Of a stretch of DNA of 62,917 bases, positions 2,411 to 60,049 are shown piece by piece. Each line of letters begins with the position of its first letter. The first letter of the stretch is position 1. The notes under the pieces were generated by a model. That model was not told where the DNA came from. It did no database searches and saw only the letters and a list, made by a program, of their open reading frames with translations. This DNA comes from Ruditapes philippinarum (taxonomy: Eukaryota): assembly GCF_026571515.1 (NCBI RefSeq), contig NW_026866080.1, positions 744,001-806,917 of the forward strand, read 5' to 3'. The position numbers and the translations under genes were made by a program.

Positions 2411-5400
2411 CAAGGGTTCATTCCATTTGAGTGTATCATTTTCAAATCCACCAAATATTAATATTTCACCATCAGTGGAACAAAACGCTGTATGCCATTC
2501 TCTAGGTTTACAAAAAGGCATTGTTATCTGTGACCACTGTCTGTCGGTCACATTCAATTGCCAAGCATCACCTGTTCATAGCAAAGGAAAGAAAAATATG
2601 AATGAAATAAGATTTTCAAATATTAATAAACCCCCCACCACAAAGCAACAACAAAAAACAAGAAGGCCAAGATGGCCCTCAATTGCTCACCTGACCAATT
2701 GAACTAATCTGAGCAATTACCTAGACAAGTCAAAAATTGACCACTAGAGTGTTAACAAGATTTTTCCATATTTGGGCGGTGTGACCTAGTTTTTGACCCC
2801 AAGTGACCCACATTCAAATTTGACTTAGAAATCATCAAAACAAACTTTTAAACTAATTTCCAGGATATTTGGATCAAAACAGTAGCCCCTAGCGTGTGAA
2901 CAAGATTTTTCTATTTTTAGCTCCTGTGACCTAGTTTTTCATCCAAGATGACCCATGTTTGAACTCATCTGAACAATTATCTACAAACACATCCAAGCAA
3001 TAACCTACACAAGCATCCTGAAAAAGTTTGATGATGATTTGTCAAAAATGTGACCACTAGAGTGTTAAAAAGGTTTTCCATATTTGGGTGGTATGACCTA
3101 GTTTTTGATCCAAGGTGACCCATATTCAAATTTGACTTAGAAATCATCAAAACAAACTTTCAGACTAATTTCCTGGATACACAGTATTTGGATTAAAGCA
3201 GAATCCACTATATTGTGAACAAGATTGTTCTACTTTTAGCTCCTGTGACCTAGTATATCATCCGAGAATGACCCATGGTTGAACTCATCCAAGCAATTAC
3301 CTAGAAAAGCATCCTGACAAAGTTGATGACAACTCAGTCAAAAATGTGACCACTAAAGTGTTAACAAGGTTTCTCCATATTTGGGCAGTGTGACCTAGTT
3401 TTTGACCCACGATGACCCATATTTAAGCTTGACCTAGAAATCATCCAAACAAATTTTCAGACCAATTTCCAGAATATTTGGATCAAAACAGTAGCCACTA
3501 CAGTGTTAACAGGATTTTTCTATTTTTAGCTCTCGTGACCTTGTTTTTCATCCGAGATGAGACCAAGGACAACAGGTGATGGCCATTCTACAATCCTTAA
3601 AGCTCACCCTGAACAATCTCAGATGAGCAAAAAAAAAAAAGAAAGAAAAAACTGGTTACTTCGATTAAAATATGGATTGAGAAATCAACTAACTAACTTA
3701 AAGACACAAAGTTGTCAGAATATCCACCATAAAGGAAGATAACTTCATCTGAGACAGCTGTAAAGGTATGCCATGATCGTCCACACGGACACGCACCTTC
3801 AACATATAACCTGAAATGTAAAATACATACGAGTTAAAAGCTTAAAGTACCTTAATGTACTCTTAGGAAATATATAATTTGGACTTTATTGTTGTAGTTA
3901 AATGAACAGTACATTTTTTAGCTTATATATTACATATATACAAGTAATATAATGAAAAAAAAACACAATTTTTAGGTCTGAGAGATTAATTTCAAAGAAT
4001 AAGAATGATAAACCTTGCATTATAATTGTACAACAATGCAAGAAAAAATTGATATTAATCTACATACTAATATGACATAAAAACAAGAATCATTAAAATT
4101 TGTTGAAGTACATCAAGTAAATTCAAGGGACTCCAGTAAGTTTTTTTTTTTTTTTTTTTTACATTACCTAACTGGAAATAATTTTTCAACATTAAAATTC
4201 AATTGAATGAAGCGTTAGATCAATATCTTTGTGCAAAATTTCAGATCATTCAAGCTCACTTCATTTATTCAAAATAACTATTCTTATTGTGAACAAGAGC
4301 TGTCACCCAAGTGACGAATGCCCCCCGAAAAGGTTTCTTAAGCATACAGGTATTATGAAAAGAAAAGAGAATGAAAGTAATTAATTGCTTAATATTGATC
4401 TTTGTATTATAGTACCTGTAATCTCTAATTGTGATAGCGTTAACCTTCAAAATATAAGTGTGACCTTGACCTTTAAAGAAGGGATGTGGTTTCTTGATGC
4501 GACAGATTGTTGTTATGAGATAGACATTTGTGCCAAGTTATTTAAAAATCCCTCAATGCATGACAAAGTTACAGTCTGGGCATAATTGTTGTGTAAGTGG
4601 GGACACACGGACAAATGGACATGAGCCTTAGCCAAGACACATTCTCTTGATGTGGTAAACATTTGTGCCAATTTATTTTAAAATCCTTCAATGCATGACA
4701 AAGTTACAGCCTGGACACGAATGTGTATCTTCAAACACTTCTAGAGAGAACGAGTACTTTCAAACTATAAGTGTGACCTTGACCTTGAAGGTAGGGTCAT
4801 GGGTTTTAGTCGTGACACATCGTCTTGATATGGTAGACATTTATGCCTAGTTATATTCAAATCCTTCCATGCATGACAAAGTTACAGTCTGGACATGAAA
4901 TCCACATCCATACAAAAATAACCAGTAACCAGGTGCACAACTACACATGCTGATCAACATTCCTGTAAAGTTTCATGACCCTAGGTCAAATACTTTTTGA
5001 GCTATATGTGACACAAGTTAACAAGAGCCTGATTTGAACCTGGTGATGCTCCCCAAATAGGTTTTGGACACAAGAAAGTACACCTCTTGTAGTTTCAGGG
5101 TTATGTCTCTTGAAAAAATTGCAATAAGTCCAAAATTAGGCAAGGCAGAGAAACTGTTCTTTGCACTGCACTTTTAATTTATGCCATCTATCAACCTACA
5201 AAGTTTCTTGTTGATAACTCTTATGGTTTCTGAGACAAAGTTCAATATGTAAAAATGAACAAAGGGCAATAACTACAAAATTTGGCAAGGCGGAGTTTAA
5301 GTTCTTGTGCACTTCACATCTACCTATTGAGATCTACCTACCTACAAAGTTTGATATAGATATCTCTTATAGTTTTAGAGTGATGTCCCAGACAAGATTT

Positions 5401-14400: not shown

Positions 14401-16398
14401 CTATTCCACAAGAAACTCTTAACAAGAGCTGTCGGTAGGACAGCAACGCTCGACTATTCTTAGTGCTTGATAGTAAAAAAAAATGCTTGATACAGTTACC
14501 ATCTCCTGTTTACAGGTTGGGGTCATGATGGTGAACAAGTGTGCAAAGTTTCAAAGCCATATGTCAATGGACTTTGAAAATATTTGAATTATTACAAAAA
14601 CTTTAACGTAAATTCTAAGTTGAAAAAGGGGCATAATTCTGTCAAAATGCTTGATAGAGTTACCTCCTCCTGTCTACAGGTTAGGGTTATGATGGTAAAC
14701 AAGTGTGCAAAGTTTCAAAGCCATATGTCAATGGACTTTGAAAATATTTGAACTATTACTAAAACTTTAACGTAAATTCTAAGTCGAAAAAGGAGCATAA
14801 TTCTGTCAAAATGCTTGATAGAGTTACCTCCTCCTGTCTACAGGTTGGGGTCATGATGGTGAACAAGTGTGCAAAGTTTCAAAGCCATATGTCAATGGAC
14901 TTTGAAAATATTTGAACTATTACAAAAACTTTAACATAAATTCTAAGTCGAAAAAGGGGGATAATTCTGTCAAAATGCTTGATACAGTTACCTCCTCCTG
15001 TCTACAGGTTGGGGTCATGATGGTGAACAAGTGTGCAAAGTTTCAAAGCCATATGTCAATGGACTTTGAAAATATTTGAACTATTACAAAAACTTTAACA
15101 TAAGTGGTTACGGCGACGCCGACGCTCGGGTGACTACAATAGCTCTACTTATTCTTATCGAATAGTCGAGCTAAAAATGTCAGTGTTAGCATTCACTTCA
15201 TTTGATATAATATATTGATCTCAAATTTTTATTTGCTGTATCAAATAGACTGAATCTGAAACCTAATTTCGAACATATAGACTGCCTAATAATTTCTGAT
15301 AGGTGAAAATATTCACCATTTCGTCGCCATCTTGCCAAAATGTTTGATCATGTGACTACGAGATGAACCTTTACGGGTTATTTATGCGTAGACAGTTAAG
15401 AAAACAGTACTATATGCTTTTAACCTTCTTTACAAATTACTTTTTTTCTCTCAAAAATTATAAAAGATGATCTGCCGATTTATAATTTACTTTTTTATTT
15501 AAGTATGAAAAATAAAAATAGAAGTAAACAAAAGCTTTAGGTGATCCCATGTGTTGCCTTATGATAGTCTATTGCATGTTGCACTTTTACTTCTGTGTAG
15601 CAGGAGGCACCAAAGTCATGCAAAATGCGTTTTTAATTCAATGGCTATAACTTGGCCAAAATTATTCAACCGGAAAACCTGCATAACATGCCCAAGTACT
15701 TGAGCTACCAATCAATCCTGTAAAGTTTCATTAAAATTGCATTAGTGGTATAAGAATAGCAGTCCAAATAAACTTTAAAAATAAAAATTATTAAAGGGCC
15801 ATAACTCTGACAAAAATCATTCAACTGATAATTGCCGACAATATGCACAACCACACTTGGTACTGATCATCCTTTTAAAGTTTGGATTAAATTGCATCAG
15901 TAGTTTTTCATAAAATTCTGTCATGTCAAGAAAGATGCTCTATATATAGTATGTGCCTGTACTCTAAGCGATTCCTCTTAACTATATGATACATTGGTCT
16001 TCTGTAACTCCTAATTATAATTAACTTGGACCATGGTCAACATCTGCCTGTTGATTTTTCCTTTCTATCTCTCTATCTTCCATTAATGTCAAACCTCTCG
16101 TGGAGAGATAGACATGACTCTAGATTAGTCACTTCAGAGGAAGCTATGAGATACAAGACTAGTGCACCCCTAGTTAGGTAGGAAAAACTGAGTGTCTCTG
16201 AAAAATCCAAAGGGTGTTACCCTGTCCCAGGATCGAACCCGGGATAATTAGGAAAAGGATATAAAATTTGCAAATAATTTATCAATGCAGCCTACAAACC
16301 TGGCACCCTCCCCACACAATCATTAAGTCATTCGCTGCCACAGCAACATGTCCAGCCCTTGGTGGAACAGTTTCAAAAGTAAAGGTAGTTGCATTCAT
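2411..16398 (-). CDS. KLHDC2: Kelch domain-containing protein 2/1-like, paralog A (exons 1-8 seen; exon 5 damaged; possibly a pseudogene)
   Basis: Exons 16398-16300 (MNATTFTFETVPPRAGHVAVAANDLMIVWGGCQ), 14132-14050, 13662-13438 (GDIPPGTSGASG...FGG...SPRDKF), 11258-11165 (LYYFGGFG), 9827-~9757 (WNNQLLVYD; donor lost), 8804-8665 (PRAAH...LFGGRHGDIRMND), 3810-3698 (GRSWHTFT), 2571-2411 (KPREWHTA...IFGG). Exon sizes match paralog B except exon 5. Exons 9-10 were not found in the window. Confidence 0.8.
2657..3630 (-). mobile_element. HINE-like element with internal tandem repeats
   Basis: Starts aacaagaaggccaagatggcc (hairpin), has repeated gtgacctagtttttgaccc units, and ends aagctcacc...gatgagc plus A-run. 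Confidence 0.6.
4291..8522 (-). mobile_element. Nested stack of HINE-like elements
   Basis: Three aacaagagc starts (~4292, ~5020, ~5977), each with a different internal tandem unit. Matching microsatellite/hairpin ends occur at ~6575-6620, ~8080-8133 and ~8460-8522. Confidence 0.6.
6860..8011. mobile_element. Non-autonomous TIR element (hAT-like CAGG termini, 5-bp TSD)
   Basis: TIRs caggcctcgacattagc / gttagtgtcgaggcctg, TSD tgaat on both sides, and subterminal gaccacc repeats. Confidence 0.8.
8790..9372. repeat. ~39-40 bp minisatellite derived from the KLHDC exon-6 acceptor junction
   Basis: Unit ggtactggtccatgaaacagacagaaggtacatgaatttataaa, repeated roughly 14 times. A related array lies at 35780-36060. 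Confidence 0.8.
9524..9755. mobile_element. Palindromic MITE (right end truncated)
   Basis: Near-perfect ~100-bp inverted arms (gcgaccagcatggatccagaccagcctgc). Same family as 12763-13005 but lacking the last ~10 nt. Confidence 0.85.
11388..11592 (+). mobile_element. tRNA-derived SINE-like repeat (3' part)
   Basis: Core ctttcatgtgaggaagc...gcacctgaggtct.tctccacca followed by a (CAAA)n tail. Related copies occur at ~43110-43210 (minus), ~53445-53720 and ~54020-54240. Confidence 0.6.
11753..12240 (-). mobile_element. HINE/Helentron-associated element
   Basis: Hairpin gctgt..gtaggacagc, subterminal inverted repeat ctcgactattc/gaatagtcgag, and a terminal A-run. Confidence 0.7.
12763..13005. mobile_element. 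Palindromic MITE (complete)
   Basis: Termini atatgagc...gctcatat with long inverted arms. Confidence 0.85.
14421..15177 (-). mobile_element. HINE/Helentron-associated element with ~164-bp internal tandem array
   Basis: Start aacaagagctgtcggtaggacagc, about 4 units of caggttggggtcatgatggtgaacaagtgtgc, (GACGCC)n, and end gaatagtcgagctaaaaa. Confidence 0.8.
15919..16118. mobile_element. Possible solo LTR
   Basis: Inverted ends tgtcatgtc...gacatgac and short motifs (atatgtgc-like, tatgatacattg) shared with LTR 1717-1897. No TSD found. Confidence 0.3.
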
Positions 16399-18655
16399 GG
16401 ATGGGCTCCAAATCTTATTTACACAAACTGAAAGTGAAATGTGTTGACAACTTCTGACACATCACATGGAAGCTTGAAATATCGCCTACACTACAACGAT
16501 TAAAAAAATCTTACGAATAAATATAATATTGTTATCGTCTCAAGCATTTTTTCGTGACAGTCGTTCTAGAAATGACTGGTTAATGATTCGATGATTCTTA
16601 AGGTGATCCTGGATGTGATGAAGTGTAGTACTTTTGAATTAATTTCGTAACAGTCGCGTAAAATTCTGGGCAGAAAACTGTTTTTGAATACTTCAGTTCT
16701 TGCCTACATGTATGTATACATTGTATTATCCATTTTATTATGGTGGCAAACGTTTTATGTAACAAATAGGATTTCATGCCGAAATGTCTAAGCCTTTGCA
16801 GAATATAATAGTTTACTGCATATTCTTTTGTTTTGTTTTTTTGTTTGTTTTTTTTTTGGGGTGGGGGTTCGAGTTTTGAATAGCCACCGTGTATATCTAG
16901 TAACGCAGGAATGTGAAAATAACGCAGAAATTGTGCAAAAGTAACGCAGAATTGTGCAATTTAGTGGCTAAAACGAGCACCGCCATAAGTAAATGGTCCA
17001 ATATTTTTTATTGTACACCAAATTGGAATAAATGAGTTAGCGCATACGGTTGCTGAGACATTATATATCCGTTAAACCTCATCAAAAATATTTCCATGAA
17101 AAAGTTTATTTTTCAAGATCATTCGCGAAAATAAGAACCTGACTAGCGTATTTATGGCGATTTTTGTTTCGTTGATATCTTTAAATACAATAACGTACGT
17201 ATTACTTTATGATTTTTTATATTCGGTGTTCCTGAGTCATTTTCCAATCTACTCATGCATGTCATATATTACACTTGATGTAACAGATAAAATGTAATTG
17301 AGACCATTTTTACGAGTTAACGCCGGATTCGTGAATGAAGCACTGACTCAACGGCGGTTATCTCATTAAAAGTAGCTAAATCCTATTTTACCAGCTTCCT
17401 TCATATTGTAAAAGTTTTAAAAATATTTAACAAATTTTTCTATCAATCCCAATCTCAAATTGGAGATACTTCTGGAAAAAAAGATAGGTGTTAGACTTAT
17501 AAATTTAAAATTATAAGATGTAGATGTTGAAAAGTAGATCAGTGACTTTAATTGTCAATTTTTTAGACTTAAGATAAATGTTGTTTGTTATCACTCACAT
17601 ATGTCTGTAAACGTGTTCATAAATGAGTTTAAAATTTCGTCATTTTGATGTTAAAATGTTGAATTCTGGTTAAACCGTTGCTGGGGGGGGGGGGGGGGGT
17701 GGCGTTTTCATAAAACATCAATTACCAAGATATGTTTTTTTGTCATTTTTGTCTCTTTTCATAGACATGATTTTCTATGATATATTGTGCAGCAATCGAT
17801 TGGAGATAAGCTCAGAATTGTTTTACCCGCAACCAACTGATATACTTGCAAACAGTTAACATATGTGTTTATAATTTAACTAAATATCATCATCAAGCCA
17901 TCATCATCATCATCATCATCATAATCATAATCAATGATCATCATCATCATCATGATCATAATTGATCATCATCATAAAAAGTAACAATCGCAACACGAAT
18001 TTTAACTACTTTTGGATATTAAAATTGATATTTCTAATAATATCAGGACATTTTACTTTCTTCATTTTACTTATGAATTAATTTATGCTGATATTTTTTT
18101 AATAAATTCATAGATTTTTGCCATATAAGGTGTAGAGCACTATAACAGAGGCAAAACGTGCATGTATTCGAAAGTCATTAAACGAAAGGAATTGTTTCAG
18201 CTCGCAAGACAGCTAGGGCACAATGATATGTCCATCTATTGTGGAATACTAGTATTTGTAAATAAAAAACCAATGACTTCCCTTCAAATGTCACTATTTA
18301 TTCACTTTAAAAGAGAAAAAAGAGTAATTGTTTTCTAACATTTTATTATTTGTAAAATCAGTTTAACAACATATATATAAAACATAACGATAAAAGCACA
18401 ACAGGAAAATGCATAACAATATTCGTTTAACATGATGAATACCTCGACAACTCCGTGATACACACAAGACAGACAGAAAAAGCAAGATGTAGTGTAAAAA
18501 AGAAAGAAATGTCTATCACAGTGGTTATTCAAATCACAGTCTGATGTTTGTTCGAAATAACACAACAATTTCTTCATTTCAAACGAAAGTATCAGATTTT
18601 GACATTCAAGCACAGTTTGTTGATATTAAATGGAACACAGTCATCCTATATCAAA

Positions 18656-20339
18656 TCAAAATCTTAGCCGAAGTCCCTTGCCAATATCTGACGTTTTGCG
18701 TGGTCTGTCGCCTGCTGACCATGACTTTGATTTTACCCGGAAGTGACGCAAGTCGTCTCTGTGTTCCTTGTGCAACATTGGTTTGTACGTCTGTGGGAAA
18801 CATTGTTCCTGGAAGAAAAACAGATGAAAGTGAAATTTTGATAACCTTATATTAATTACAGTTTCATTTTAATTTATAGATCGTGAAGCTTATTATTTTG
18901 ATATATTAAATTAGAAGCAATGTTTGCATTAAAAACTGCATAAATTTACTTTTAGACATGATCAAGATGAAATATTTTCTATGAATAAATTTATAAGCAA
19001 ATGATTTGAAAGGTTTCAAAATTTTTACAAAGATATCAATGTTTAAATTTAATCAAAGGCTTACCTTGTTTGTGTTGAAGAAAGCTTTATAACCTCCTTC
19101 TAAGAGATAAATCTCGGGAAAGTTGAGTCGAGGGTAGTTGTCTTTGTTCAAATCTCGATCTAGAGCCCTTAAGTGGCGATACCTGAAACAAATATTTCAT
19201 TTTTATTAAACTCCAATAAATAATTGAAAGAAATAAGAAATGAAAGAAAGATTAAAACTCTTTATCGGAGATGACATTGTTGTGATGAATTGAAACATGG
19301 AATATATCTTTTCCGTGTTGAATACATTACTTAAATATGGTTAATATAATTGGTAAACTTAATGAATGTATAATGCTGAAGTTCTCTTACATTTTTGGTC
19401 CTCTTTCAGAAGAAAATTCGCAGTGGAAAATGAGAACATGGTTGTTTGTTGGTGACGTCACTGTTTCTTGGATGAATTGTTTTATCGATTCTTTAGTAAA
19501 TAAATTGACAGCTCCCTGAAAAATAGATAGAATAAATTTATAACAACGTAAAATATCAGTAAAGTTAAAAAAAAATATGCTATAATAATTGACGTCGATA
19601 ACTAAATAATTACATATAAAATGTAAAATATCACTTAAAAGAGCACAACATTGGATCCGCAAATTCTATATTAGTACTAACATAATGATTCTTTTGAATT
19701 TACCTTTATATGACCGCCTCCGAATTCATACGGATATCTACAGTCTATAATCGTTACTTTGTCAACACTGCTGTCGTAGACGCCGTCCAGGACGTCAGAC
19801 ATCGTTTCCGGTGAGATGGCGCTAAGATCGCTATGCTTTCCTGGAATTGTGGGTAGAATATTGACACGTGATCCGTCTGCAATAAGGTCAGATTCTGTAG
19901 ACAGCTTATCAACAGCTTGTATGATGCTCGATATTGGGCTAAGAGTTGTCACTTCTGGTTTGGGTGTTGATGTGAAGCAATGAAATCGTCTTCTCTTCAG
20001 TGTAGGGGTTAAATCGAGACTTTCCGCTTGGCGTTTAACAGGTCCTTTCACATCATTTGCAGTTATTCCAAAATCTAACCTCGTTCTGAAAATATTTAAA
20101 TAAATTTTAGTTACAATAAATGGAAGATGAAAGAGAAAAAATGGCACACGTTTATCATATTGTAAATAATAATTACTGAGAATTCATTTTATATAAAATA
20201 AAATCTACTGCAACGTTTATGTTATATCATGATTTTATATTGTCTGAACTTGAAAATTAATTCAATATTATATAATAGTTGTTTACCTTGTGTTTCTTGC
20301 CAAAGTTACGTCAGTGAAATCTGAAGGTAGCGGAGGCAT
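18656..20339 (-). CDS. CDC25: M-phase inducer phosphatase (Cdc25-like), copy 1, 276 aa
   Basis: Exons 20339-20287, 20085-19704 (IIDCRYPYEFGGGHIK), 19515-19391 (IFHCEFSSERGP, intact HCX5R), 19182-19065 (YPRLNFPEIYLLEGGYKAFF), 18808-18656 (YKPMLH...FRVKSKSW...stop). All junctions are GT-AG and in phase. The start exon is less certain. Confidence 0.93.
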
Positions 20340-21244
20340 TGTTGATATTATTTCTTTCTGTTTGTGAATGTAAATATATAAGATCAGAAGGTTGAATGAT
20401 GAAAAATTCCATATTTTTTCTTTATATACCATTTGAAAAATTTTGCCTACAGAAATTTTGAAAACAGCTCATTGAATTAGCAAACTGTGACGAGATTGTT
20501 TGATTGTTTTGATAACATTGAGCTAGTACAGTCGCCGCCGTCATCGCCCCGACCGGTGTTAAAAACATCACAGCGGCATAATTAACTCGCCATCAAATTA
20601 TTATTAGTATCTATTGTTATGATAATTAGCGATGATTACAGATCAATATTGTTTCTGATAGTTCACGAACTTCTCATTAGATCAAATATCGATTAAAGGT
20701 ATTTGGTAAAAAAAAATCTTGTCTGATTTATATCTTAAAGAAAATATTTTTATTACATATTTAGACTTTATCTGCAAAGTCGAAATTTTTGTTTTACATT
20801 TCATAACGAAATCAATAGTTGGGAAAAATATGTTATGTCTTTAATAGTTTTGTTGGCTTACGGACGAATCGTCCACTTCCATTCATGAGTAAATGTTAAT
20901 AATTTGTTAAATACCGAGTAAATATAAGACTGTTTTACAGCGTAAATTAAAATGACAATACAGAAGCTGTAAAGAAAACGAAAAAATATTATCGAAGTAA
21001 GAGACGTGTGAACATAACAGTATAAACACGAGTACATTTGTATTACACAATGCAACAAATTTTGTACATTTCTCAATTATCAATTATTTCAATAATACTA
21101 GTATTATGTGACGTCACGATACGAATTCAATATTTATTTTATTCATTTATTTACGTATTATCATGGCATTACTGTGCATCAGATATACAGCATAAAAAAT
21201 AAGTGTCATTCAATATTGTCTAAAGTTCTTTAATCATTGCAAAT

Positions 21245-21492
21245 TGATCATCATCTTCTTTGATCATCATCATCATCGACATCACCAACATCACCATCAT
21301 CAACAAGCTATCATCATCATCATTATCATCATCAACAACACCACCAACATTATCATCATTGATCATTTTTATTGATCATCCTCATCACCATTGTCAAACC
21401 CGTCATCATCAAGCCATCATCGTCACTGATCATCATCATAATCATAATCAATGATCATCATCATCATCATGATCATAATTGATCATCATCAT
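21245..21492. repeat. Imperfect (ATC)n microsatellite at the unit junction
   Basis: catcat runs, with homologous tracts at 17886-17975, 24755-24965 and 28465-28540. Confidence 0.9.
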
Positions 21493-22171
21493 AAAAAGTA
21501 ACAATCGCAACACGAATTTTAACTACTTTTGGATATTAAAATTGATATTTCTAATAATATCAGGACATTTTACTTTCTTCATTTTACTTATGAATTAATT
21601 TATGCTGATATTTTTTTACTAAATTCATAGATTTTTGCCATATAAGGTGTAGAGCACTATAACAGAGGCAAAACGTGCATGTATTCGAAAGTCATTAAAC
21701 GAAAGGAATTGTTTCAGCTCGCAAGACAGCTAGGGCACAATGATATGTCCATCTATTGTGGAATACTAGTATTTGTAAATAAAAAACAATGACTTCCCTT
21801 CAAATGTCACTATTTATTCACTTTTAAAAGAGAAAAAAGAGTAATTGTTTTCTAACATTTTATTATTTGTAAAATCAGTTTAACAACATATATATAAAAC
21901 ATAACGTTAAAAGCACAACAGGAAAATGCATAACAATATTCGTTTAACATGATGAATACCTCGACAACTCCGTGATAAAAGACAGACAGAAAAAGCAAGA
22001 TGTAGTGTAAAAAAGAAAGAAATATGTCTATCACAGTGGTTATTCAAATCACAGTCTGATGTTTGTTCGAAATAACATAAAAAAATTCTTCATTTCAAAC
22101 GAAAGTGTCAGATTTTGACATTCAAGCACAGTTTGTTGATATTTAATGGAACACAGTCATCCTATTTCAAA

Positions 22172-23854
22172 TCAAAATCTTAGCCGAAGTCCCTTGCCAA
22201 TATCTGACGTTTTGCGTGGTCTGTCGCCTGCTGACCATGACTTTGATTTTACCCGGAAGTGACGCAAGTCGTCTCTGTGTTCCTTGTGCAACATTGGTTT
22301 GTACGTCTGTGGGAAACATTGTTCCTGGAAGAAAAACAGATGAAAGTGAAATTTTGATAACCTTATATTAATTACAGTTTCATTTTAATTTATAGATCGT
22401 GAAGCTTATTATTTTGATATATTAATTTAGAGGCAATGTTTGCATTAAAAACTGCATAAATTTACTTTTAGACATGATCAAGATGAAATATTTTCTATGA
22501 ATAAATTTATAAGCAAATGATTTGAAAGGTCTCAAAAATTTTACAAAGATATCAATGTTTAAATTTAATCAAAGGCTTACCTTGTTTGTGTTGAAGAAAG
22601 CTTTATAACCTCCTTCTAAGAGATAAATCTCGGGAAAGTTGAGTCGAGGGTAGTTGTCTTTGTTCAAATCTCGATCTAGAGCCCTTAAGTGGCGATACCT
22701 GAAACAAATATTTCATTTTTATTAAACTCCAATAAATAATTGAAAGAAATAAGAAATGAAAGAAAGATTAAAACTCTTTATCGGAGATTACGTTGTTGTG
22801 ATGAATTGAAACATGGAATGTATCTTTTCCGTGTTGAATACATTACTTAAATATGGTAAATATAATTGGTAAACTTAATGAATGTATAATGCTGAAGTTC
22901 TCTTACATTTTTGGTCCTCTTTCAGAAGAAAATTCGCAGTGGAAAATGAGAACATGGTTGTTTGTTGGTGACGTCACTGTTTCTTGGATGAATTGTTTTA
23001 TCGATTCTTTAGTAAATAAATTGACAGCTCCCTGAAAAATAGATAGAATAAATTTATAACAACGTAAAATATCAGTAAAGTTAAAAAAAATATGCTATAA
23101 TAATTGACGTCGATAACTAAATAATTACATATAAAATGTAAAATATCACTTAAAAGAGCACAACATTGGATCCGCAAATTCTATATTAGTACTAACATAA
23201 TGATTCTTTTGAATTTACCTTAATATGACCGCCTCCGAATTCATACGGATATCTACAGTCTATAATCGTTACTTTGTCAACACTGCTGTCGTAGACGCCG
23301 TCCAGGACGTCAGACATCGTTTCCGGTGAGATGGCGCTAAGATCGCTATGCTTTCCTGGAATTGTGGGTAGAATATTGACACGTGATCCGTCTGCAATAA
23401 GGTCAGATTCTGTAGACAGCTTATCAACAGCTTGTATGATGCTCGATATTGGGCTAAGAGTTGTCACTTCTGGTTTGGGTGTTGATGTGAAGCAATGAAA
23501 TCGTCTTCTCTTCAGTGTAGGGGTTAAATCGAGACTTTCCGCTTGGCGTTTAACAGGTCCTTTCACATCATTTGCAGTTATTCCAAAATCTAACCTCGTT
23601 CTGAAAATATTTAAATAAATTTTAGTTACAATAAATGGAAGATGAAAGAGAAAAAATGGCACACGTTTATCATATTGTAAATAATAATTACTGAGAATTC
23701 ATTTTATATAAAATAAAATCTACTGCAACGTTTATGTTATATCATGATTTTATATTATCTGAACTTGAAAATTAATTCAATATTATATAATATTTGTTTA
23801 CCTTGTGTTTCTTGCCAAAGTTACGTCAGTGAAATCTGAAGGTAGCGGAGGCAT
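22172..23854 (-). CDS. CDC25: M-phase inducer phosphatase (Cdc25-like), copy 2, 276 aa
   Basis: Exons 23854-23802, 23600-23219, 23031-22907, 22698-22581, 22324-22172. The protein appears identical to copy 1. Confidence 0.93.
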
Positions 23855-25636
23855 TGTTGATATTATTTCTTTCTGTTTGTGAATGTAAATATATAAGATC
23901 AGAAGGTGAATGATGAAAAATTCCATATTTTTTCTTTATATACCATTTGAAAAATTTTGCCTACAGAAATTTTGAAAACAGCTCAATGAATTAGCAAACT
24001 GTGACGAGATTGTTTGATTGATTTTGATAACATTGAGCTAGTACAGTCGCCGCCGTCAACGCCCCGACCGGCGTTAAAAACATCACAGCGGCATAATTAA
24101 CTCGCCATCAAATTATTATTAGTATCTATTGTTATGATAATTAGCGATGATTACAGATCAATATTGTTTCTGATAGTTCACGAACTTCTCATTAGATCAA
24201 ATATCGATTAAAGGTATTTGGTAAAAAAAAATCTTGTCTGATTTATATCTTAAAGAAAATATTTTTATTACATATTTAGACTTTATCTGCAAAGTCGAAA
24301 TTTTGGTTTTACATTTCATTACGAAATCAATAGTTAGAAAAAATATCTTATGTCTTTAGTAATTTTGTTGGCTTACGGACGAATCGTCCACTTCCATTCA
24401 TGAGTAAATGTTAATAATTTGTTCAATACCGAGTAAATATAAGACTGTTTTACAGCGTAAATTAAAATGACAATACAGAAGCTATAAAGAAAACGAAAAA
24501 ATATTATCGGAAGTAAGAGACGCGTGAACATAACAGTATAAACACGAGTATTACACAATGCAACAAATTTTGTACATTTCTCAATTATCAATTTTTTCAA
24601 TAATACTAGTATTATGTGACGTCACGATACGAATTCAATATTTATTTTATTCATTTATTTACGTATTATCATGACATTACTGTGCATCAGATATACAGCA
24701 TAAAAAATAAGTGTCATTCAATATTGTCTAAAGTTCTTTAAGCATTGCAAATTGATCATCATCTTCTTTGATCATCATCGACATCACCATCATCAACAAC
24801 CTATCATCATCATCATCATTATTATCATCATCAACAACAACACCACCAACATTATCATCATTAATCATTTTTATTGATCATCCTCATCACCATTGTCAAA
24901 CCCGTCAGCATCAAGCCATCATCGTCACTGATCATCATCATAATCATAATCATTGATCATCATCATAAAAAGTAACAAACGCAACACGAATTTTAACTAC
25001 TTTTGGATATTAAAATTGATATTTCTAATAATATTAGGACATTTTACATTCTTCATTTTACTTATGAAGTAATTTATGCTGATATTTACTAAATTCATAG
25101 ATTTTTGCCATATAAGGTGTAGAGCACTATAACAGAGGCAAAACGTGCATGTATTCGAAAGTCATTAAACGAAAGAAATTGTTTCAGCTCGCAAGACAGC
25201 TAGGGCACAATGATATGTCCATCTATTGTGGAATACTAGTATTTGTAAATAAAAAACAATGACTTCCCTTCAAATGTCACTATTTATTCACTTTAAAAGA
25301 GAAAAAAGAGTAATTGTTTTCTAACATTTTATTATTTGTAAAATCAGTTTAACAACATGTATATAAAACATAACGTTAAAAGCACAACAGGAAAATGCAT
25401 AACAATATTCGTTTAACATGATGAATACCTCGACAACTCCAAAAAAGACAGACAGAAAAAGCAAGATGTAGTGTAAAAAAGAAAGAAATATGTCTATCAC
25501 AGTTGTTATTCAAATCACAGTCTGATGTTTGTTCGAAATAACATAAAAATTTCTTCATTTCAAACGAAAGTATCAGATTTTGACATTCAAGCACAGTTTG
25601 TTGATATTAAATGGAACACAGTCATCCTATATCAAA

Positions 25637-27319
25637 TCAAAATCTTAGCCGAAGTCCCTTGCCAATATCTGACGTTTTGCGTGGTCTGTCGCCTGCTGAC
25701 CATGACTTTGATTTTACCCGGAAGTGACGCAAGTCGTCTCTGTGTTCCTTGTGCAACATTGGTTTGTAAGTCTGTGGGAAACATTGTTCCTGGAAGAAAA
25801 ACAGATGAAAGTGAAATTTTGATAACCTTATATTAATTACAGTTTCATTTTAATTTATAGATCGTGAAGCTTATTATTTTGATATATTAATTTAGAGGCA
25901 ATGTTTGCATTAAAAACTGCATAAATTTACTTTTAGACATGATCAAGATGAAATATTTTCTATGAATAAATTTATAAGCAAATGATTTGAAAGGTCTCAA
26001 AATTTTTACAAAGATATCAATGTTTAAATTTAATCAAAGGCTTACCTTGTTTGTGTTGAAGAAAGCTTTATAACCTCCTTCTAAGAGATAAATCTCGGGA
26101 AAGTTGAGTCGAGGGTAGTTGTCTTTGTTCAAATCTCGATCTAGAGCCCTTAAGTGGCGATACCTGAAACAAATATTTCATTTTTATTAAACTCCAATAA
26201 ATAATTGAAAGAAATAAGAAATGAAAGAAAGATTAAAACTCTTTATCGGAGATGACATTGTTGTGATGAATTGAAACATGGAATATATCTTTTCCGTGTT
26301 GAATACATTACTTAAATATGGTTAATATAATTGGTAAACTTAATGAATGTATAATGCTGAAGTTCTCTTACATTTTTGGTCCTCTTTCAGAAGAAAATTC
26401 GCAGTGGAAAATGAGAACATGATTGTTTGTTGGTGACGTCACTGTTTCTTGGATGAATTGTTTTATCGATTCTTTAGTAAATAAATTGACAGCTCCCTGA
26501 AATATAGATAGAATAAATTTATAACAACGTAAAATACCAGTAAAGTTAAAAAAATTATGCTACAATAATTGACGTCGATAACTAAATAATTACATATAAA
26601 ATGTAAAATATCACTTAAAAGAGCACAACATTGGATCCGAAAATTCTATATTAGTACTAACATAATGATTCTTTTGAATTTACCTTAATATGACCGCCTC
26701 CGAATTCATACGGATATCTACAATCTATAACCGTTACTTTGTCAACACTGCTGTCGTAGACGCCGTCCAGGACGTCAGACATCGTTTCCGGTGAGATGGC
26801 GCTAAGATCGCTATGCTTTCCTGGAATTGTGGGTAGAATATTGACACGTGATCCGTCTGCAATAAGGTCAGATTCTGTAGACAGCTTATCAACAGCTTGT
26901 ATGATGCTGGATATTGGGCTAAAAGTTGTCACTTCTGGTTTGGGTGTTGATGTGAAGCATTGAAATCGTTTTCTCTTCATTGTAGGAGTTAAATCGAGAC
27001 TTTCCGCTTGGCGTTTAACAGGTCCTTTCACATCATTTCCAGTTATTCCAAAATCTAACCTCGTTCTGAAAATATTTAAATAAATTTTAGTTACAATAAA
27101 TGGAAGATGAAAGAGAAAAAATGGCACACGTTGATCATATTGTAAATAATAATTACTGAGAATTCATTTTATATAAAAAAAAATCTACTGCAACGTTTAT
27201 GTTATATCATGATTTTATATTGTCTGAACTTGAAAATTAATTCAATATTATATAATAGTTGTTTACCTTGTGTTTCTTGCCAAAGTTACGTCAGTAAAAT
27301 CTGAAGGTAGCGGAGGCAT
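25637..27319 (-). CDS. CDC25: M-phase inducer phosphatase (Cdc25-like), copy 3, 276 aa
   Basis: Exons 27319-27267, 27065-26684, 26496-26372, 26163-26046, 25789-25637. Six amino-acid changes versus copy 1 in exon 2. The catalytic motif is intact. Confidence 0.93.
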
Positions 27320-30300
27320 TGTTGATATTATTTCTTTCTGTTTGTGAATGTAAATATATAAGATCAGAAGTTGAATGATGAAAAATTCCATATTTTTTCT
27401 TTATATACCATTTGAAAAATTTTGCCTAAAGAAATTTTGAAAACAGCTCATTGAATTAGCAAACTGTGACGAGATTGTTTGATTGGTTTTGATAACATTG
27501 AGCTAGTAAAGTCGCCGCCGTCATCGCCCCGACCGGTGTTAAAAACATCACAGCGGCATAATTAACTCGCCATCAAATTATTATTAGTATCTATTGTTAT
27601 GATAATTAGCGATGATTACAGATCAATATTGTTTCTGATAGTTCACGAACTTCTCATTAGATCAAATATCGATTAAAGGTATTTGGTAAAAAAAATCTTG
27701 TCTGATTTATATCTTAAAGTAAATATTTTTATTACATATTTAGACTTTATCTGCAAAGTCGAAATTTGGGTTTTACATTTTATTACGAAATCAATAGTTG
27801 CGTGAAGACGCGTGAACATAACAGTATAAACACGAGTATTACACAATGCAACAAATTTTGTACATTTCTCAATTATCAATTTTTTCAATAATACTAGTTA
27901 GTAGTATTATGTGACGTCACGATACGAATTCAATATTTCTTTTATTCATTTATTTACGTATTATCATGACATGACTGTACATCATACATACAGCATTAAA
28001 ATAGAATACATTTTATGTAGTAATAGGTCATTCAATATTGTTTTATATGAAACATAAATATAACAAAATTACTTTTATAAGCTTTACATGGATACAAACT
28101 AAACATGTACATCTTAAAAACTTCCAGGGAGCGTTGATGCGTGTTTTTTTCTTCTTTTTTTCCTCTCTTTACTGATAAAGTAATTAATAATTATGTCATT
28201 TCTTGCTATCTTCATATCAGGTGTCGAGCATTGCTAAAGATTATAGTAAGGACAACTAATTATACATATATGATATATCAGTAGCTGTGGATTACATTCA
28301 CATTTAGATGTAGGTTTCATTTGAATATCGGACATATTTAACCTTACATTATAAGATCCAATATGATATCACCATTTTCATCACTGACCTTTGATAAAAA
28401 TTGAAAAAAAATGAGTAAGACTAATAAAGGTATAAATGTCTGAAGTTCTCTGGTTAATCAACATTGATCATCATTATTATCATCATTGATCATCATCATC
28501 ACCAGTATCGTCATCATCATCATCATTGATCATCATCAAAAAACAACAACAAACACAACAAGTATTCTAACTACTTTTGAATATTAAAATTGGTAATTTT
28601 CTAATAATATCAGGACAGTTTTCATTCTTCATTTTACTAATAAAGTAAATAATCTTATTAATTGTTTCTTATATCTTCGTAGACTTTTATCATATTATAA
28701 GTAGAGCACTATTACAGTTACTGTGAAGGCTAGTACAAAGTTTAGCAAGTGTTATTGTGAACAAATATAGGTTTGTTTGAGAAACGAGCTGCTAATGCCA
28801 TTTCATACCAATAGATTACAATTTGTAATATCCTGTATCCTATAGAGCCTACAAAAAAGTAACATTTTATGGCCCATGAATCAAATAATGAAATGTCTTC
28901 TTTCTTTAAATAAAAGCCATGTATTCTTTTTTTATTTATTTAGAAATAATCAAAATAGCACATACAATAGAGGTAGAGACAAGTAAAAAATAACAAAAAT
29001 ATAACACAATGCAAAATAAAACGGTCAACAAAGTTGAGTGGTAAAATCAACTGCATCTAATATGAATCAATGAAATAATCAAAATAAAATTCAGAAACAT
29101 GAATATTTGTAAAATTGATGTATGCTCCACAGTGTTGCTTTTATAAACATGGCCATGCTAGGAGTACACTTGAATTATAGCTGTGCTACACAGATAAGTA
29201 GAAAAATACATTTCGAGACACAGTGAACTTCAGCAAATCTGACTGAACTCCCGCTGAATGGTATAAGACTATTGATGGTATCAACAAACTAACTACTACT
29301 ATCTAAGAAATCAGTCAATAAATGAAAGAGCTATGCCACAGCAGAAGATGAATCTGCAACTATTTGGTCACCCAGAAATTTTCCAGGAGCATAAAAACAA
29401 ATTTAAGATTGAGCCGAGCACTCCACTATTCTCAGTGCTCAATAGTAAACTTAAGATTGTTACAGTGCCCTTGATATTACCTAAAGTGGGCATGGCGGCT
29501 ATGACTCACAAAGGTGCTTCTGCATTCAAAGTCTGAAGTTTTCTGGGCAATGCACTCTGACTAAATGACCAATTTTATGTTTTGCTATTACAGGTGACTT
29601 TGACCTTTGACCTCAAATGGGTATGACGGATAGAACTTATAAGGTCTGATAAAGTAGCATTGTTAGTACACAAGTTAATGGCAATAACCTTAAAACTTAA
29701 CCAAACAGGTAAATCAAAACCAACACTGCCGAGTGGCTCATCACAAAAGCCCCAATTTTTCTTCTAAAAATGGAGCAAATTAAAATGTTAAAATACAATG
29801 TATACAATAACATTGCACAGTACATGTGATAATACATAATAAAACAGATATCTATAAAGCCACTTGCTGTGCAGCATGAAAAGCTATTACATTTATAGCC
29901 CAGCATGATATTTTATTAACTTTTGGCACTACACTTTTGTATGTTCACTTAGATAATTTATTTTACATTGTGACAAAAAAACTAACTGCATGAAAGTGTT
30001 AAAAACTATACTTGAAAATAAGTCGTTAGGGAGGTTAGAGAAAATAAACTTTGCAAGAAAAAAAAATGAATAACTAATAAACAAGGTAGACACAAATGCA
30101 AATAGGATATAAAAATGAAGACAATAAGTAAATAGGCATGTCTTTTCTGAATTATCATCATACAAATTATTTCTTACAAAAACAAATGTGTCAGTTTTTC
30201 ATATTTTCTATATATTTTTTTTTTCAAAATATTTTTTTTTAAAGAATTATACAAATACTTCATGTCTCACAGAAGGCTACAAGAACATTTCTCAATTATT

Positions 30301-31434: not shown

Positions 31435-34400
31435 TTAGCACATAACACAGGTACTGCCCTGTCTTATAGCATCTGGCTCATATGCGTCTATAAATTTAGT
31501 ATTTTCAAGTCCTTTCCTCTTCAATAGCCAGTCATTTAGTGGTTTAGGTAGAATGGTCCATTTATCTGGCGAACAATGTATGTAAACAGTTTGTAGACAT
31601 ATTCTGAAAATATACAAGATACTTTACATTAACACTTTCCCTGCCAATGGAAAGACACATCTCATACAAACAATAATTTATCTGCCTAATTTTGTCATAT
31701 ATTATATTTGATTCAAGTTATGAAATAATTAATTTCATGTAAAGCTTTCTTAAACTTCTTCTAAAAGAAATATGTATATATAAATGGGAAAATACATCCA
31801 TAATTCAAAAAATAACAAAATTCTTACATATGCTAATAAATATACAGTAAACTCTTGGCGAAGATATGATACAGTGAGTTGTTAAGGCATCTGCCTCTCA
31901 CACCAGCTATTGTGTGTTCAAGCCTTACTCCAGTCACAACCAAGCTTTAAACTTCACCACAATCAAGCTACAAGTAATATATCTAAATACTTTTTTATGT
32001 TCAGTGCTTAAATTTAAACAGTATAACAGGTCATTTGTCAGCACCCAGTCACCTAATGTGAGTTTCTAGATTCTATACAGGTACTGATCTGTTTTGTTTT
32101 TCCACAAGCACCTGTCAACTTCTTATAAAATATATGGTATGGGAGGTTGATAAATGGAATTACCTATCAAACTAATTGTCATACTGTGTAAGTGATTAAG
32201 TGAAGATATGAAAATATTGGCGAATTTCACAAATTGATGAAAATCGCAAAAATTTCCTACAGCAGTAATATCAACCAACCTGTCTTTAATTCTACCCTTG
32301 CATGATTCACTTATATTTCCCTATGTTAAATGTCTGGAATTTTAAATTTGTTAATTTACAACATGCGGGGAAATATCCACTTACACATTATGTTACATCA
32401 AAATATTGTGCCTTGTTCAGCACTCAACCTTAACCACTTTTATGTCTCCAATGAGACGAAAGTCAGTCATCCTTCTTCCTGACCACGTTGTGTGCATTCA
32501 TGTTGATAACAAGAAGTAGGAATCTCTTCACTGACATTGATATTACACAAATTTAGTATGGCACAGGTCATTTGCATCAAAGGAATTGTATGCTATTTAT
32601 TCAAATAAAACTTTTAAGTCATTTTAAATCAAACATGTTAATAAACTACTGTTAAATATTTTTTGTACACATAACTTACCTTTGTAAACTATAAGGTTTA
32701 AGTTGGAAAGTCAGTACTTCATTTGATTGTTTCTGAAAAAAAAATTGCTTTGCCATTTTAGTCTTAAACATAAACAATTTATAAAAATCAAATCTGACCC
32801 TGTACTACAGTGGAATTTATTGTGGCCATTAGTTAATATTCTATAACAAAAGTTTGTCACAAAGTTTCATAATTTTTGTTCTAAAATATTGTGGATTTAT
32901 TCTCTAATAAAGCCCCCAAAAAGTATAAAAAATAGTAGAATTAAGAGAGCACAATCAAATGCATGTACACAATAAAGTAACAAAGCCACATTATATAACA
33001 TATGTACATATTATTTGATAAAGCTACTTCCTACTATATCAAACCACTTTTACCTCGGTCCATAACTTTACAAAAATATAAAATTTTGGGATCGATCACA
33101 AAACAATTATTGTGATTTCTGTTTTCATTTCGGTTTGAAACTTTCATTAATCATTATTTTGGCTAATATACTATGCCCAATAATGGTAAACATGTATCAT
33201 CAATCACAACAGGTATAGACCCAGGCCAGTCTGTATATCTGTACAGTTTGATCAAGTCTTTTCGTTTGGCTACTAACATTTTTTCGTCTTCATTTCAAAA
33301 AAAAGTTGAGAATGGACCATTCCCAAAAGGGAAGTTGGATGAATACATTTAAGAAATTCAGCAACTCACTGCAACTTCATCCCATCTGAGTATATCATTT
33401 TCACATCCACCAAATATTAATACTTCACCATCAGTGGAACAACACGCTGTATGCCATAGTCTAGGTTTAAAAAAAGGCACCGTTATCTGTGACCACTGTC
33501 TGTCGGTCACATTCAATTGCCAAGCATCACCTGGTCATCAACAAAAGAAAGAAAAAGAAAATATAAATGCAATAAGAATTTTCAGATACTTCATAATTTT
33601 TTAATTCAACATGTATTGTGTAAAATCTTGGATCCATTGAGGTCTTTGTATCACACACAGGTTATCTATTGTGTTATAAATATAGGATATTGAATGAATG
33701 AAGGTTCCCTAATGAATTTATTGAACAAGTTGAATAAAATATACATTATTCGAGCCTCTGGAAAGCAAAATATTATTTTATTCAACAAGTTCAATAAATT
33801 CAGTAATAAATCTACACAAGTTTTATATTCAATTAATCACATACCCAAAATAAAGACTATTTAAATTGCAAAAGAATCATTTATTCAATGATGCGCCTAT
33901 AGCATAATGCTAGCATTTAGCACAACTTTACAATATGTTTGTGTAACGAAAATGACATCATGTCAAAACATATGCACAGCCCTGCAATACCATTTTTACA
34001 GAGTTGTAAAATCGGAACGGGTATGTGATAAATTATTGTTTTTGCTTTTTCAAATGTATTTTGCTTTGGAACTGAAAATTTCTTTTTTTTTTCATAGTTA
34101 AAGGGGCATAACTCTGCCAAAAATCATCGAACCATGACCAAATTGAACTTGACTTGCGCATTCCTTTGACATATTATATATCCATATGCAAAATTTGAGC
34201 TGAATGTGTACTACCATTGGGGAGATAATGAATGGAAACTGAAAATTTCATCAAGGGGAATAACTCTGTCAAAAATCATTCAACAATGACCAAATTAGAA
34301 CTATCTATGATATATCCATATGTCAAATTTGAGTTGAATATGTGCAACCGCTACCAAGATAGAGAACGGAAACTGATGGTGGAATGACGGAAGTACAGAA

Positions 34401-46346: not shown

Positions 46347-46594
46347 TGTTAGATTTTAAAAATAATGGTCTTTTTTATTTTGCATAAAGATTAAAGTTGA
46401 CAGATTGACATATCACATGGAAGCTTGATACATCGCCTACATCACACCGATTAAATATGATCTTCCGAATATATATAATATTGTTATCGTCTTAAATTGA
46501 AAACTAAAGTAAATCAAGTCACGGTAAATTAAGTCAATGTTTTTCAGTGAAAAAAGAAAGAAAGCATACAAAATTACCAAAGACTGACAGGGAC

Positions 46595-50403: not shown

Positions 50404-50610
50404 TTTGCATCATTTGACAGTTGGAGCGAAATTCTGCACGTGTTTTGTTGTTTACAGAGGGCGCGATTTTGCTGGTTCTCAAATTTGTCACCGTCTATTA
50501 AACGTAAAATATACAAATTGGAACCAGACTGTATTGTGCTTAATATCAAACGTGCTTCCGCTGAAGAAAACTAACCGCTCTCTTGACATAGCAGTTAAAA
50601 ACTATTAAAG
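50404..50610. promoter_or_regulatory. Putative bidirectional promoter
   Basis: 207 bp between divergent ATGs, relatively CpG-rich, with CACGTG at 50437-50442. Confidence 0.4.
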
Positions 50611-58660: not shown

Positions 58661-60049
58661 TTATTATCCCCCGCCGATGGAATCGGGAGGGGGATATAGT
58701 TTTGGCGTTGTCCGTCCTTCCGTCCGTCCGTCCATCCGTCCGTCCGAATTTCGTTTCCGGAGTAGTTCTCTGCAACTACTTGCTGGAATTCAACGAAACT
58801 TTATGGGAATCATCAATATCAAGAGGAGATGCGCATCTGGCCGTCCGTTCGTCCGTCCGAATTTCGTTTCCGGAGTAGTTCTCTGCAACTACTGGCTGGA
58901 ATTCAACGAAACTTTATGGGAATTATCAATATCAAGAGGAGATGCACATATCGTCGGCTTGTTCCGGTCAGACGCTTTAACTCAGAGTTATTGCCCTTGA
59001 TTAGTTATGTAGTATGCATATAGAGTAAAAATCGTTTCCGCGCTACTTCTCTGCAACTACTGGCTGGAATTCAACGAAACTTTATGGGAATCATCAATAC
59101 CAAGAGGAGATGCGCATATCATCGGCTTGTTCGGGTCAGACACTTTAACTCAGAGTTATGGCCCTTGATTAGTTATGCAGTATGCATATGGAGTAAAAAT
59201 CGTTTCCGCACTACTTCTCTGCAACTACTGGCTGGAATTCAACAAAACTTTATGGGAACCTTCAATACCAAGAGGAGATGCGCATGTCGTCGGCTTTTTC
59301 GGGTCAGACACTTTAACTCAGAGTTATGGCCCTTGATTAGTTATGCAATATGCATATGGAGTAAAAATCATTTCCGGAGTAGTTCTCTGCAACTACTGGC
59401 TGGAATTCAACGAAACTTTATGGGAATCATCAATATCAAGAGGAGATGCGCATATCATCGGCTTGTTCCGGTCAGACCCTTTAACTCAGAGTTATGGCCC
59501 TTGATTAGTTATGTAGTATGCATATAGAGTAAAAATCGTTTCCGCACTACTTCTCTGCAACTACTGGCTGGAATTCAACAAAACTTTATGGGAACCTTCA
59601 ATACCAAGAGGAGATGCGCATATCATCGGCTTGTTCGGGTCAGACACTTTAACTCAGAGTTATGGCCCTTGATTAGTTATGCAGTATCCATATAGAAAAA
59701 TATTTGTTTCCTCGCTACTTCTCTGCTACCACCGGCTGGAATTCAATGAAAATTTATGGGATACAAAGAGGAGATGTGCATATAGTCGCCTTGTTCCAGT
59801 CAGATACTTATAACTCAGATTTATGGCCCTTGATTAGTTATGTAGTATGCATACATCTCATTGGCATTTCCAGATTTTACTATTTAACACAAAGTTATGG
59901 GTCTGTTATTTCCCTGAATATTTATCAAGTTCAAAGAATATTACTGTTTATGCCATGATTAATATATAAATAAAGCCTTATGTCTTCAGTTGTTGTGTTA
60001 ATAATAACCAGTACTCGGCGGGGGATATAAATTCAACGAATTTGCTTGT
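58661..60049 (+). mobile_element. HINE element with ~168-bp tandem array
   Basis: Subterminal IR atcccccgccga / tcggcgggggat, (CCGT)n microsatellite, 6-7 units, and a terminal hairpin. Confidence 0.75.

What the first reader, a model, noticed from the sequence alone, without database searches (positions are those of the whole stretch)
18656..20339. Compact Cdc25 lacking most of the N-terminal regulatory domain
Seen: the predicted protein is only 276 aa, with ~85 aa before the catalytic domain. That stretch keeps TP/SP sites (LTPTLKRRR, which overlaps a basic NLS-like cluster; FTSTPK; LSP), and the C-terminal RVKSKSW tail is kept. The repeat unit contains no other evident coding exon. Known: vertebrate Cdc25s are much longer, and their N-termini carry checkpoint-kinase, 14-3-3 and degron sites. 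Inference: a streamlined, possibly checkpoint-insensitive, germline or embryo paralog distinct from the canonical gene.
Basis: partly seen in the sequence, partly recalled or inferred. Interest (0 to 1): 0.7.

Follow-up and report, generated by a model that had tools for sequence, protein, structure and literature searches.

The report
Short, multiplied clam Cdc25 phosphatases
This clam gene is a real, spliced, half-length version of the cell-division trigger Cdc25, one of about 20 short copies beside a single full-length gene, from an old bivalve and snail lineage that lost most of its N-terminal control sites and likely serves egg or sperm maturation.

Summary
A five-exon minus-strand gene (20339-18656) encodes a 276-aa Cdc25 with about 83 residues before an intact catalytic domain. 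It lies in three tandem intact copies, RNA contigs splice all four introns, and no upstream coding exon was found. The genome (named Ruditapes philippinarum by protein sources) holds at least 24 cdc25 loci. One is a canonical 659/567-aa gene; the rest are of the short type or resemble it. Short Cdc25s from all sampled bivalve lineages and abalone form one clade (99/98), and a recent truncation of the clam's long gene is rejected (p-AU 1.8e-9). So this is an old, expanded paralog class, not a local oddity. It keeps the bipartite NLS and the C-terminal site equivalent to human CDC25A Thr507 (a CHK1/14-3-3 site), and lacks the long gene's N-terminal RxxS and degron-like motifs. 'Checkpoint-insensitive' therefore goes too far; 'reduced N-terminal control' fits. 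A germline role is likely but not shown for this gene. Also found: a 200-bp upstream block, 95-97.5% identical among paralogs, and two RNA runs that cover the unit unspliced. My paper searches found no description of this clade.

The parts
18656..20339 (-). short cdc25, copy 1; five coding exons 20339-20287, 20085-19704, 19515-19391, 19182-19065, 18808-18656; 276 aa
22172..23854 (-). short cdc25, copy 2; same protein as copy 1 (one synonymous change)
   Evidence: matches public model P0001
25637..27319 (-). short cdc25, copy 3; 13 nt and 6 aa differences from copy 1, 5 of the 6 in the N-terminus
   Evidence: matches public model P0002
19986..20036 (-). bipartite NLS pattern KR-x11-KRRR with internal TP (residues 35-51), same pattern as in long Cdc25s
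   Evidence: function inferred
19402..19425 (-). active-site loop HCEFSSER (residues 176-183)
18719..18739 (-). RVKSKSW (250-256); S255 aligns with human CDC25A Thr507
18328..18655 (-). 3' UTR; AATAAA at 18347-18342; RNA contigs of 4 runs end at 18328-18343
20340..20460 (-). transcribed 5' leader, contiguous with exon 1 in a contig of run X3 (minimum extent)
20455..20654 (-). conserved non-coding block, 95-97.5% identical among diverged paralogs; holds several upstream ATGs; likely promoter or 5' leader element
17887..27800 (.). tandem array of three units of about 3.5 kb, about 97.7% identical

Best explanation
The gene encodes a catalytically intact, predicted nuclear Cdc25 phosphatase of an old short-form clade of bivalves and some gastropods, which likely activates Cdk1-cyclin B at a developmental G2/M step, most likely germ-cell meiosis or early cleavage, while the single long cdc25 would serve checkpoint-controlled somatic cycles. 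Shown: gene structure, splicing, intact active site, a separate long gene, the clade, and loss of the N-terminal RxxS and degron-like motifs with the NLS pattern and the C-terminal Thr507-like site kept. Inferred: with little N-terminal phospho-control left, output would be set mainly by how much RNA and protein is made (restricted expression, the conserved upstream block, many gene copies), with one remaining kinase brake at S255. The many copies would be kept as dosage and turn over by birth and death.
For: Active site HCEFSSER and CDC25B match E 1e-54. Model core matches CDC25B at 2.0 A over 169 columns; N-terminus has pLDDT under 50. Catalytic-domain dN/dS 0.07-0.22 in 6 of 6 paralog pairs. 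All 57 short bivalve and abalone rows form one clade, 99/98; union with the venerid long genes is rejected. Motif counts, short (n=55) against long mollusc (n=20): R[CS][HQ]S[EA] 0 vs 18, [DG]DGF 1 vs 20, RxxSxP 2 vs 17, bipartite NLS 38 vs 19; C-terminal motif 49 of 57 vs 18 of 20. Expression looks restricted: about 0 in runs X21 and X22, strong cover in X19 and X24. In the related clam V. decussata six CDC25 probes were higher in spawned oocytes (PMC4254928, passages), and its supplement lists CDC25 contigs with values up to 104 that match five different oyster proteins.
Against: No run used here has a tissue label, so germline expression of this gene is not shown. The V. decussata probes could not be assigned to short or long genes. 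X19 and X24 cover introns as deeply as exons and list no cdc25 splice joint among the 15 best-supported joints, so that signal may be genomic DNA or non-coding retained-intron RNA. No enzyme or checkpoint assay exists. The motif patterns were chosen after I had seen the long proteins. 29 of 55 short proteins keep a DSG motif (0 of 9 in this subfamily), so loss of control sites is not uniform. One of four residues named for CDK2 docking (CDC25A Glu447) is Ala here (numbering matched by spacing).
Confidence: 0.58

Rival explanations
1. The protein is a checkpoint-blind, constitutively active Cdc25.
For: No RxxS/T motif lies in its N-terminus against 15 in the long gene's first 468 residues. 14-3-3 binding to CDC25A is described as needing two sites, and only the C-terminal one is kept here; T507E alone had little effect on CDK2-cyclin A binding (PMC11316097).
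Against: The Thr507-equivalent serine and its basic context are kept in 49 of 57 short proteins. That CHK1 inhibits Cdc25s through this site alone is recalled from Uto et al. 2004, which I could not open.
Confidence: 0.2
2. The short genes are active but ordinary mitotic paralogs without a germline specialisation; their number reflects neutral tandem duplication and uncollapsed alleles.
For: Copies 1 and 2 differ at 10 of 852 intron sites. Broken copies exist (C15386 has stops, C8107:71910 is degenerate). Several loci come in near-identical pairs that may be alleles. Bivalve genomes expand many families (recalled).
Against: The short clade has persisted beside the long gene in every bivalve lineage sampled, with several sub-lineages shared by Ruditapes, Mercenaria, Mya and Dreissena. 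Two RNA runs show about no reads.
Confidence: 0.17
3. The 276-aa model is a truncated annotation of a longer gene, or a decaying fragment.
For: A contig of run X1 carries 877 nt of unrelated 5' sequence and lacks exon 1. No cap-based 5' end was seen.
Against: In-frame stops lie 84-132 nt upstream. X3's contig runs 121 nt into the leader and has the copy-2/3-type deletion, which puts the -84 stop inside it (one of its two leader differences was not listed). The start is conserved in three other genera. Similarity between paralogs ends about 410 nt upstream. The catalytic domain is under purifying selection.
Confidence: 0.05

Closest known systems
Human CDC25A/B/C (M-phase inducer phosphatases; PDB 1cwr, 8roz, 3op3)
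   Same: Rhodanese-fold catalytic domain, HCEFSSER loop, CDK-docking Arg/Arg/Tyr, C-terminal basic motif with the Thr507-like residue; bipartite NLS pattern as in shark and bichir Cdc25B.
   Different: N-terminus of about 83 residues instead of several hundred; no N-terminal RxxS site or degron-like motif; Glu447 position is Ala; about 20 copies instead of three genes.
Canonical long mollusc Cdc25 (own genome C12978, P0245/P0157)
   Same: Same family and genome; NLS pattern and C-terminal motif shared; introns after GGHI(K/E) and before the last exon shared.
   Different: 659/567 aa with RCHSE, RINSMP, DSG and GDGF motifs; separate clade; it lacks the PKM|Y intron of the short gene and has a DCSK|T intron that the short gene lacks.
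Drosophila twine and other germline Cdc25 paralogs
   Same: A second cdc25 beside a general one, used in meiosis and controlled at translation by Boule (PMC13072017, passages); a model for how the short genes may work.
   Different: Twine was not in my trees, so orthology was not tested; from recall it is single-copy and keeps a longer N-terminus.
Frog and zebrafish cdc25d
   Same: A divergent extra cdc25 paralog with restricted expression (PMC9178385, passages).
   Different: Described there as possibly lacking a phosphatase domain and with a divergent C-terminus; the clam protein keeps both. Not in my trees.
Chiton short Cdc25s (Liolophura, 342-399 aa)
   Same: Shortened N-terminus, several copies.
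   Different: They group with the chiton long gene (94/86), not with the bivalve-abalone clade: likely an independent shortening.

Membership tests
Cdc25 (M-phase inducer) phosphatases | HCX5R active-site loop in a rhodanese fold | tested here: met
   HCEFSSER; Pfam Rhodanese 52.3 bits; best structural matches are CDC25B/A/C
Cdc25 (M-phase inducer) phosphatases | DCRYPYE motif and closest similarity to metazoan Cdc25 rather than arsenate-reductase-type small Cdc25 | tested here: met
   E 1e-54 to CDC25B against 2e-5 to a Leishmania Sb/As reductase
Cdc25 (M-phase inducer) phosphatases | CDK-docking residues (CDC25A R446, E447, R450, Y455) and basic C-terminal tail | tested here: met
   three of four kept, E to A; R/K/K of the tail kept
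Cdc25 (M-phase inducer) phosphatases | dephosphorylates Cdk pT14/pY15 | not testable with these tools
   needs an assay
Canonical long Cdc25 orthologs | long N-terminal regulatory region with RxxS and degron-like motifs | tested here: not met
   83 aa, none of the motifs. Pfam PF06617 is no test here: the clam's long gene also misses it and the genome search with it rang nowhere
Canonical long Cdc25 orthologs | groups with long mollusc Cdc25s in a tree | tested here: not met
Germline Cdc25 paralogs (twine-like) | germline-restricted expression and meiotic requirement | tested here: inconclusive
   uneven cover among unlabelled runs; oocyte data only for unassigned probes of a related clam
Checkpoint-insensitive Cdc25 | no CHK1/14-3-3 site | tested here: not met
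   Thr507-equivalent S255 kept; its use is untested

The most novel reading that the evidence does not exclude
Bivalves and basal gastropods run germ-cell M-phase entry with a second, ancient class of Cdc25 that replaced phospho-degron control by dosage and RNA control: tens of tandem copies, possibly far more than the assembly shows, a near-invariant upstream element with upstream ATGs, and stored intron-retaining transcripts that are spliced or translated in a burst.
Probability: 0.22. Interest if true: 0.72.

Novelty: new variant of a known kind. Interest (0 to 1): 0.45.

Why it matters
Cdc25 is usually a gene family of one to four members whose long N-terminus carries checkpoint and feedback control (general knowledge). 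A short clade kept across bivalves and abalone, and grown to about 20 loci in this clam, is a natural deletion series. It allows a direct test of what the N-terminus adds beyond the NLS and the C-terminal CHK1-type site. It also bears on oocyte competence in farmed clams, where CDC25 probes already mark spawned eggs. The protein chemistry is ordinary and the genes are already annotated by name; what appears undescribed is the clade, its architecture and its size.

Tried and rejected
First splice-site guess was off by 1-3 nt and was corrected. Contigs C5099 and C825 were first suspected to hold the canonical gene; they hold short paralogs. A PF06617 genome search was uninformative because it rang nowhere. 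The run search listed no holder on record as RNA; the contig runs X1-X4 are RNA by guess, though their spliced joints argue for it. The 5' loose end of X1 was not found in the 37 loci then held. No Rfam family reached its gathering score in 17500-21500, and the conserved block has no unusual fold (z 0.46). The block has no stop-free frame longer than 46 codons and none joins the main frame, so it is rejected as a hidden coding exon. Supplements of PMC9803972, PMC6007409 and PMC6708199 held no cdc25 term; larger expression tables not held there may bear on tissue bias. Uto et al. 2004 was not held. A search for T507 papers gave 0. Earlier scan findings: none. Ten unnamed short Cdc25s outside the clade were looked up; only one carried an organism name, a mite, so the outer limit of the clade is open. 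No complex prediction was run: a Cdc25-Cdk pair would pass by likeness to solved structures.

Full report
1. The observation. The minus strand carries five exons (20339-20287, 20085-19704, 19515-19391, 19182-19065, 18808-18656) that join to 831 nt and 276 aa, with GT-AG at all four introns. The gene lies in a unit of about 3.5 kb repeated three times at about 97.7% identity. All three copies are open: copy 2 encodes the same protein, copy 3 differs at 6 residues. Introns differ at 10-14 of 852 sites between copies, so the duplications are recent; an assembly origin for a copy cannot be excluded. Contigs of four public runs (RNA by guess) join intron 4 and intron 3 in 4 of 4 runs, intron 2 in 2 of 4 and intron 1 in 2 of 4, and end at 18328-18343, just past an AATAAA.

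2. The 5' end. Public models of copies 2 and 3 are 300 aa because exon 1 stays open to an ATG 72 nt upstream. Copy 1 has a one-base insertion there and a different in-frame ATG at -93. In-frame stops at -84 (copies 2, 3) and -132 (copy 1) cap the protein near 300-307 aa. A contig of X3 runs from exon 1 to 20460 without a break and carries the copy-2/3-type deletion, so the -84 stop should lie in the transcript; one of its two leader differences was not listed. Against this, one X1 contig lacks exon 1 and has 877 nt of unrelated 5' sequence; its 14 differences in the piece spanning exon 2 point to another allele or paralog, and its loose end was not in the 37 loci held.

3. The protein. It matches human CDC25B at E 1e-54 from residue 81-84 on, with HCEFSSER and DCRYPYE intact. 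The model is confident in the catalytic core and under pLDDT 50 over the N-terminus; its best matches are CDC25B, A and C structures. dN/dS is 0.07-0.22 in the catalytic domain in 6 of 6 pairs among four close copies, against 0.15-0.94 in the N-terminus (few changes). RVKSKSW aligns with CDC25A RTKSRTW. PMC11316097 (passages read) states that Thr507 is one of two CHK1 sites that mediate 14-3-3 binding, that the basic residues of this tail are needed to bind CDK2-cyclin A, and that T507E alone changed affinity little. So one checkpoint-type site is kept and its N-terminal partner is gone.

4. The genome. Three exon searches gave 25, 21 and 23 matches, which I group into 24 loci. This is a lower bound by the tool's note, and some near-identical pairs may be alleles. 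One locus, C12978, is the canonical gene, with public models of 659 and 567 aa. The others are short or resemble the short type; the N-termini of C13630 and C8884 were not modelled, and at least two loci are broken. The short genes carry an intron (PKM|Y; in C5099 and C825 also SPET|M) that the long gene lacks, so they are not retrocopies of it.

5. Relatives. The best 120 of 1838 hits of near length are mostly 210-410-aa Cdc25s of bivalves, with abalone, limpet and chiton. A second search gave long Cdc25s of the same groups (best 120 of 2741). I chose 60 short and 35 long named proteins from these lists by hand, to spread taxa and drop near-duplicates, and built trees of the catalytic region (194 columns). 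The 57 short bivalve and abalone rows form one clade in all three builds (SH-aLRT 97; 96; bootstrap 99 and SH-aLRT 98). It includes the protobranch Solemya, pteriomorphs, unionids and imparidentians. Holding the Ruditapes and Mercenaria short proteins together with their long genes costs 158 log units (p-AU 1.8e-9). The three chiton short proteins group with the chiton long gene, likely a separate shortening. Of 63 further unnamed proteins of 250-430 aa, 26 fell in the clade; of ten looked up, seven had names: Solemya, Mytilus, Magallana and the gastropod Gigantopelta. If the root lies outside, the duplication predates the bivalve-gastropod split. Deep branches are weak (vertebrate rows are misplaced), and faster evolution of the short genes could inflate their grouping. 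No short member from cephalopods or caenogastropods appeared in the listed hits, which is no proof of absence.

6. What was lost and kept. After dropping 2 of 57 short models truncated at the N-terminus, N-terminal length has a median of 120 aa (70-193, n=55) against 406 aa (260-471, n=20) in long mollusc proteins. R[CS][HQ]S[EA] occurs in 0 of 55 against 18 of 20, [DG]DGF in 1 against 20, RxxSxP in 2 against 17, DSG in 29 against 20 (0 of 9 in this gene's subfamily), and the bipartite NLS pattern in 38 against 19. The C-terminal motif is in 49 of 57 against 18 of 20. I chose these patterns after seeing the long proteins. Reading DSG and DDG as beta-TrCP degrons and the basic pattern as an NLS is recalled knowledge, not a call result.

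7. An upstream element. Bases 20455-20654 are 191, 190 and 195 of 200 identical to three paralogs. In the two more distant paralogs the proximal leader is only 62% and 57% identical and exon 1 is 81% and 83%. A genome search found the block at 6 of 6 candidates, all in front of this cdc25 subfamily. It has no unusual fold and no Rfam family. It holds upstream ATGs, including a 30-codon frame in 5 of 6 copies. It is likely a promoter or leader element; gene conversion is the alternative.

8. Expression. Raw reads of X21 and X22 (one study) give about no cover, while X19 and X24 (another study) cover the copy-3 unit at about 10-120-fold per bin, mostly with copy-1/2 alleles, against about 0-13 in the 6 kb upstream. 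Intron depth equals exon depth there, and no cdc25 joint is among the 15 joints shown (37 hidden, weaker). The libraries are unstranded, so retained-intron RNA and multi-copy genomic DNA cannot be told apart. An X2 contig also spans intron 1. Retaining intron 1 puts a stop right after codon 18 (sequence). No run has a tissue label. In V. decussata six CDC25 probes were higher in spawned oocytes, and the authors note seven CDC25 genes in the oyster genome (PMC4254928, passages and supplement rows). A Cdc25b-named oyster gene falls in sterile triploid ovaries (PMC13685108, passages). Neither can be assigned to the short clade.

9. Mechanism and rivals. The best reading is an active, nuclear, N-terminally reduced Cdc25 used for a developmental, likely germ-cell, G2/M step and controlled mostly by supply, with one C-terminal kinase site left (0.58). 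A fully checkpoint-blind enzyme (0.20), ordinary redundant mitotic copies (0.17) and a truncated model (0.05) are the rivals. Family membership and paralog status are near certain; the biological role is the uncertain part.

10. Novelty. The genes carry automatic names in public databases, and a count of seven oyster genes is in print. Searches for cdc25 with expansion/bivalve, paralogs/mollusc, gonad/clam, oyster/gametogenesis, gene duplication/germline/lophotrochozoan and Ruditapes/sex-biased (open-licence library only, most hits seen as listings) found no description of a short mollusc clade. PMC7290932 and PMC7645701 (passages) added nothing on it; PMC9178385 (passages) covers vertebrate cdc25d. 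Verdict: a new variant of a known kind, interest 0.45.

Noticed in passing
window 2417-2629, 16288-16428, 33367-33596, 46246-46495: Exons of two tandem kelch-repeat (KLHDC-like) genes on the minus strand flank the cdc25 array; matching pieces are 74-92% identical.
   Followed up: partly
window 20455-20654 and five other places: Non-coding block more conserved among paralogs than the adjacent coding exon, with a 30-codon upstream frame in 5 of 6 copies.
   Followed up: partly
window 25200-27800, runs X19 and X24: Deep, unspliced read cover of the whole repeat unit; either retained-intron RNA or a high-copy array.
   Followed up: partly
window 48093-49289 (-), 49885-50409 (-), 57559-58206 (+): Open frames of 398, 174 and 215 codons; the first two have no Pfam match over cut-off, the third was not scanned.
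   Followed up: partly
G000 C15386, C8107:71910, C5099:14839-14910: Broken or frameshifted cdc25 copies beside intact ones, as expected from birth-and-death turnover.
   Followed up: no
L007-L016 (C11557, C2083, C5918, C11665, C5995, C4585, C12443): Other short paralogs have lost further introns in the catalytic region.
   Followed up: no
window 14480-15107, 36450-37654, 41759-44876, 58864-59835: Tandem repeats with units of 163-168 bp.
   Followed up: no
P0080, P0110, P0259, P0382: Mollusc or unnamed Cdc25 models with repeated catalytic parts or unusual length, probably fused tandem copies in gene prediction.
   Followed up: no
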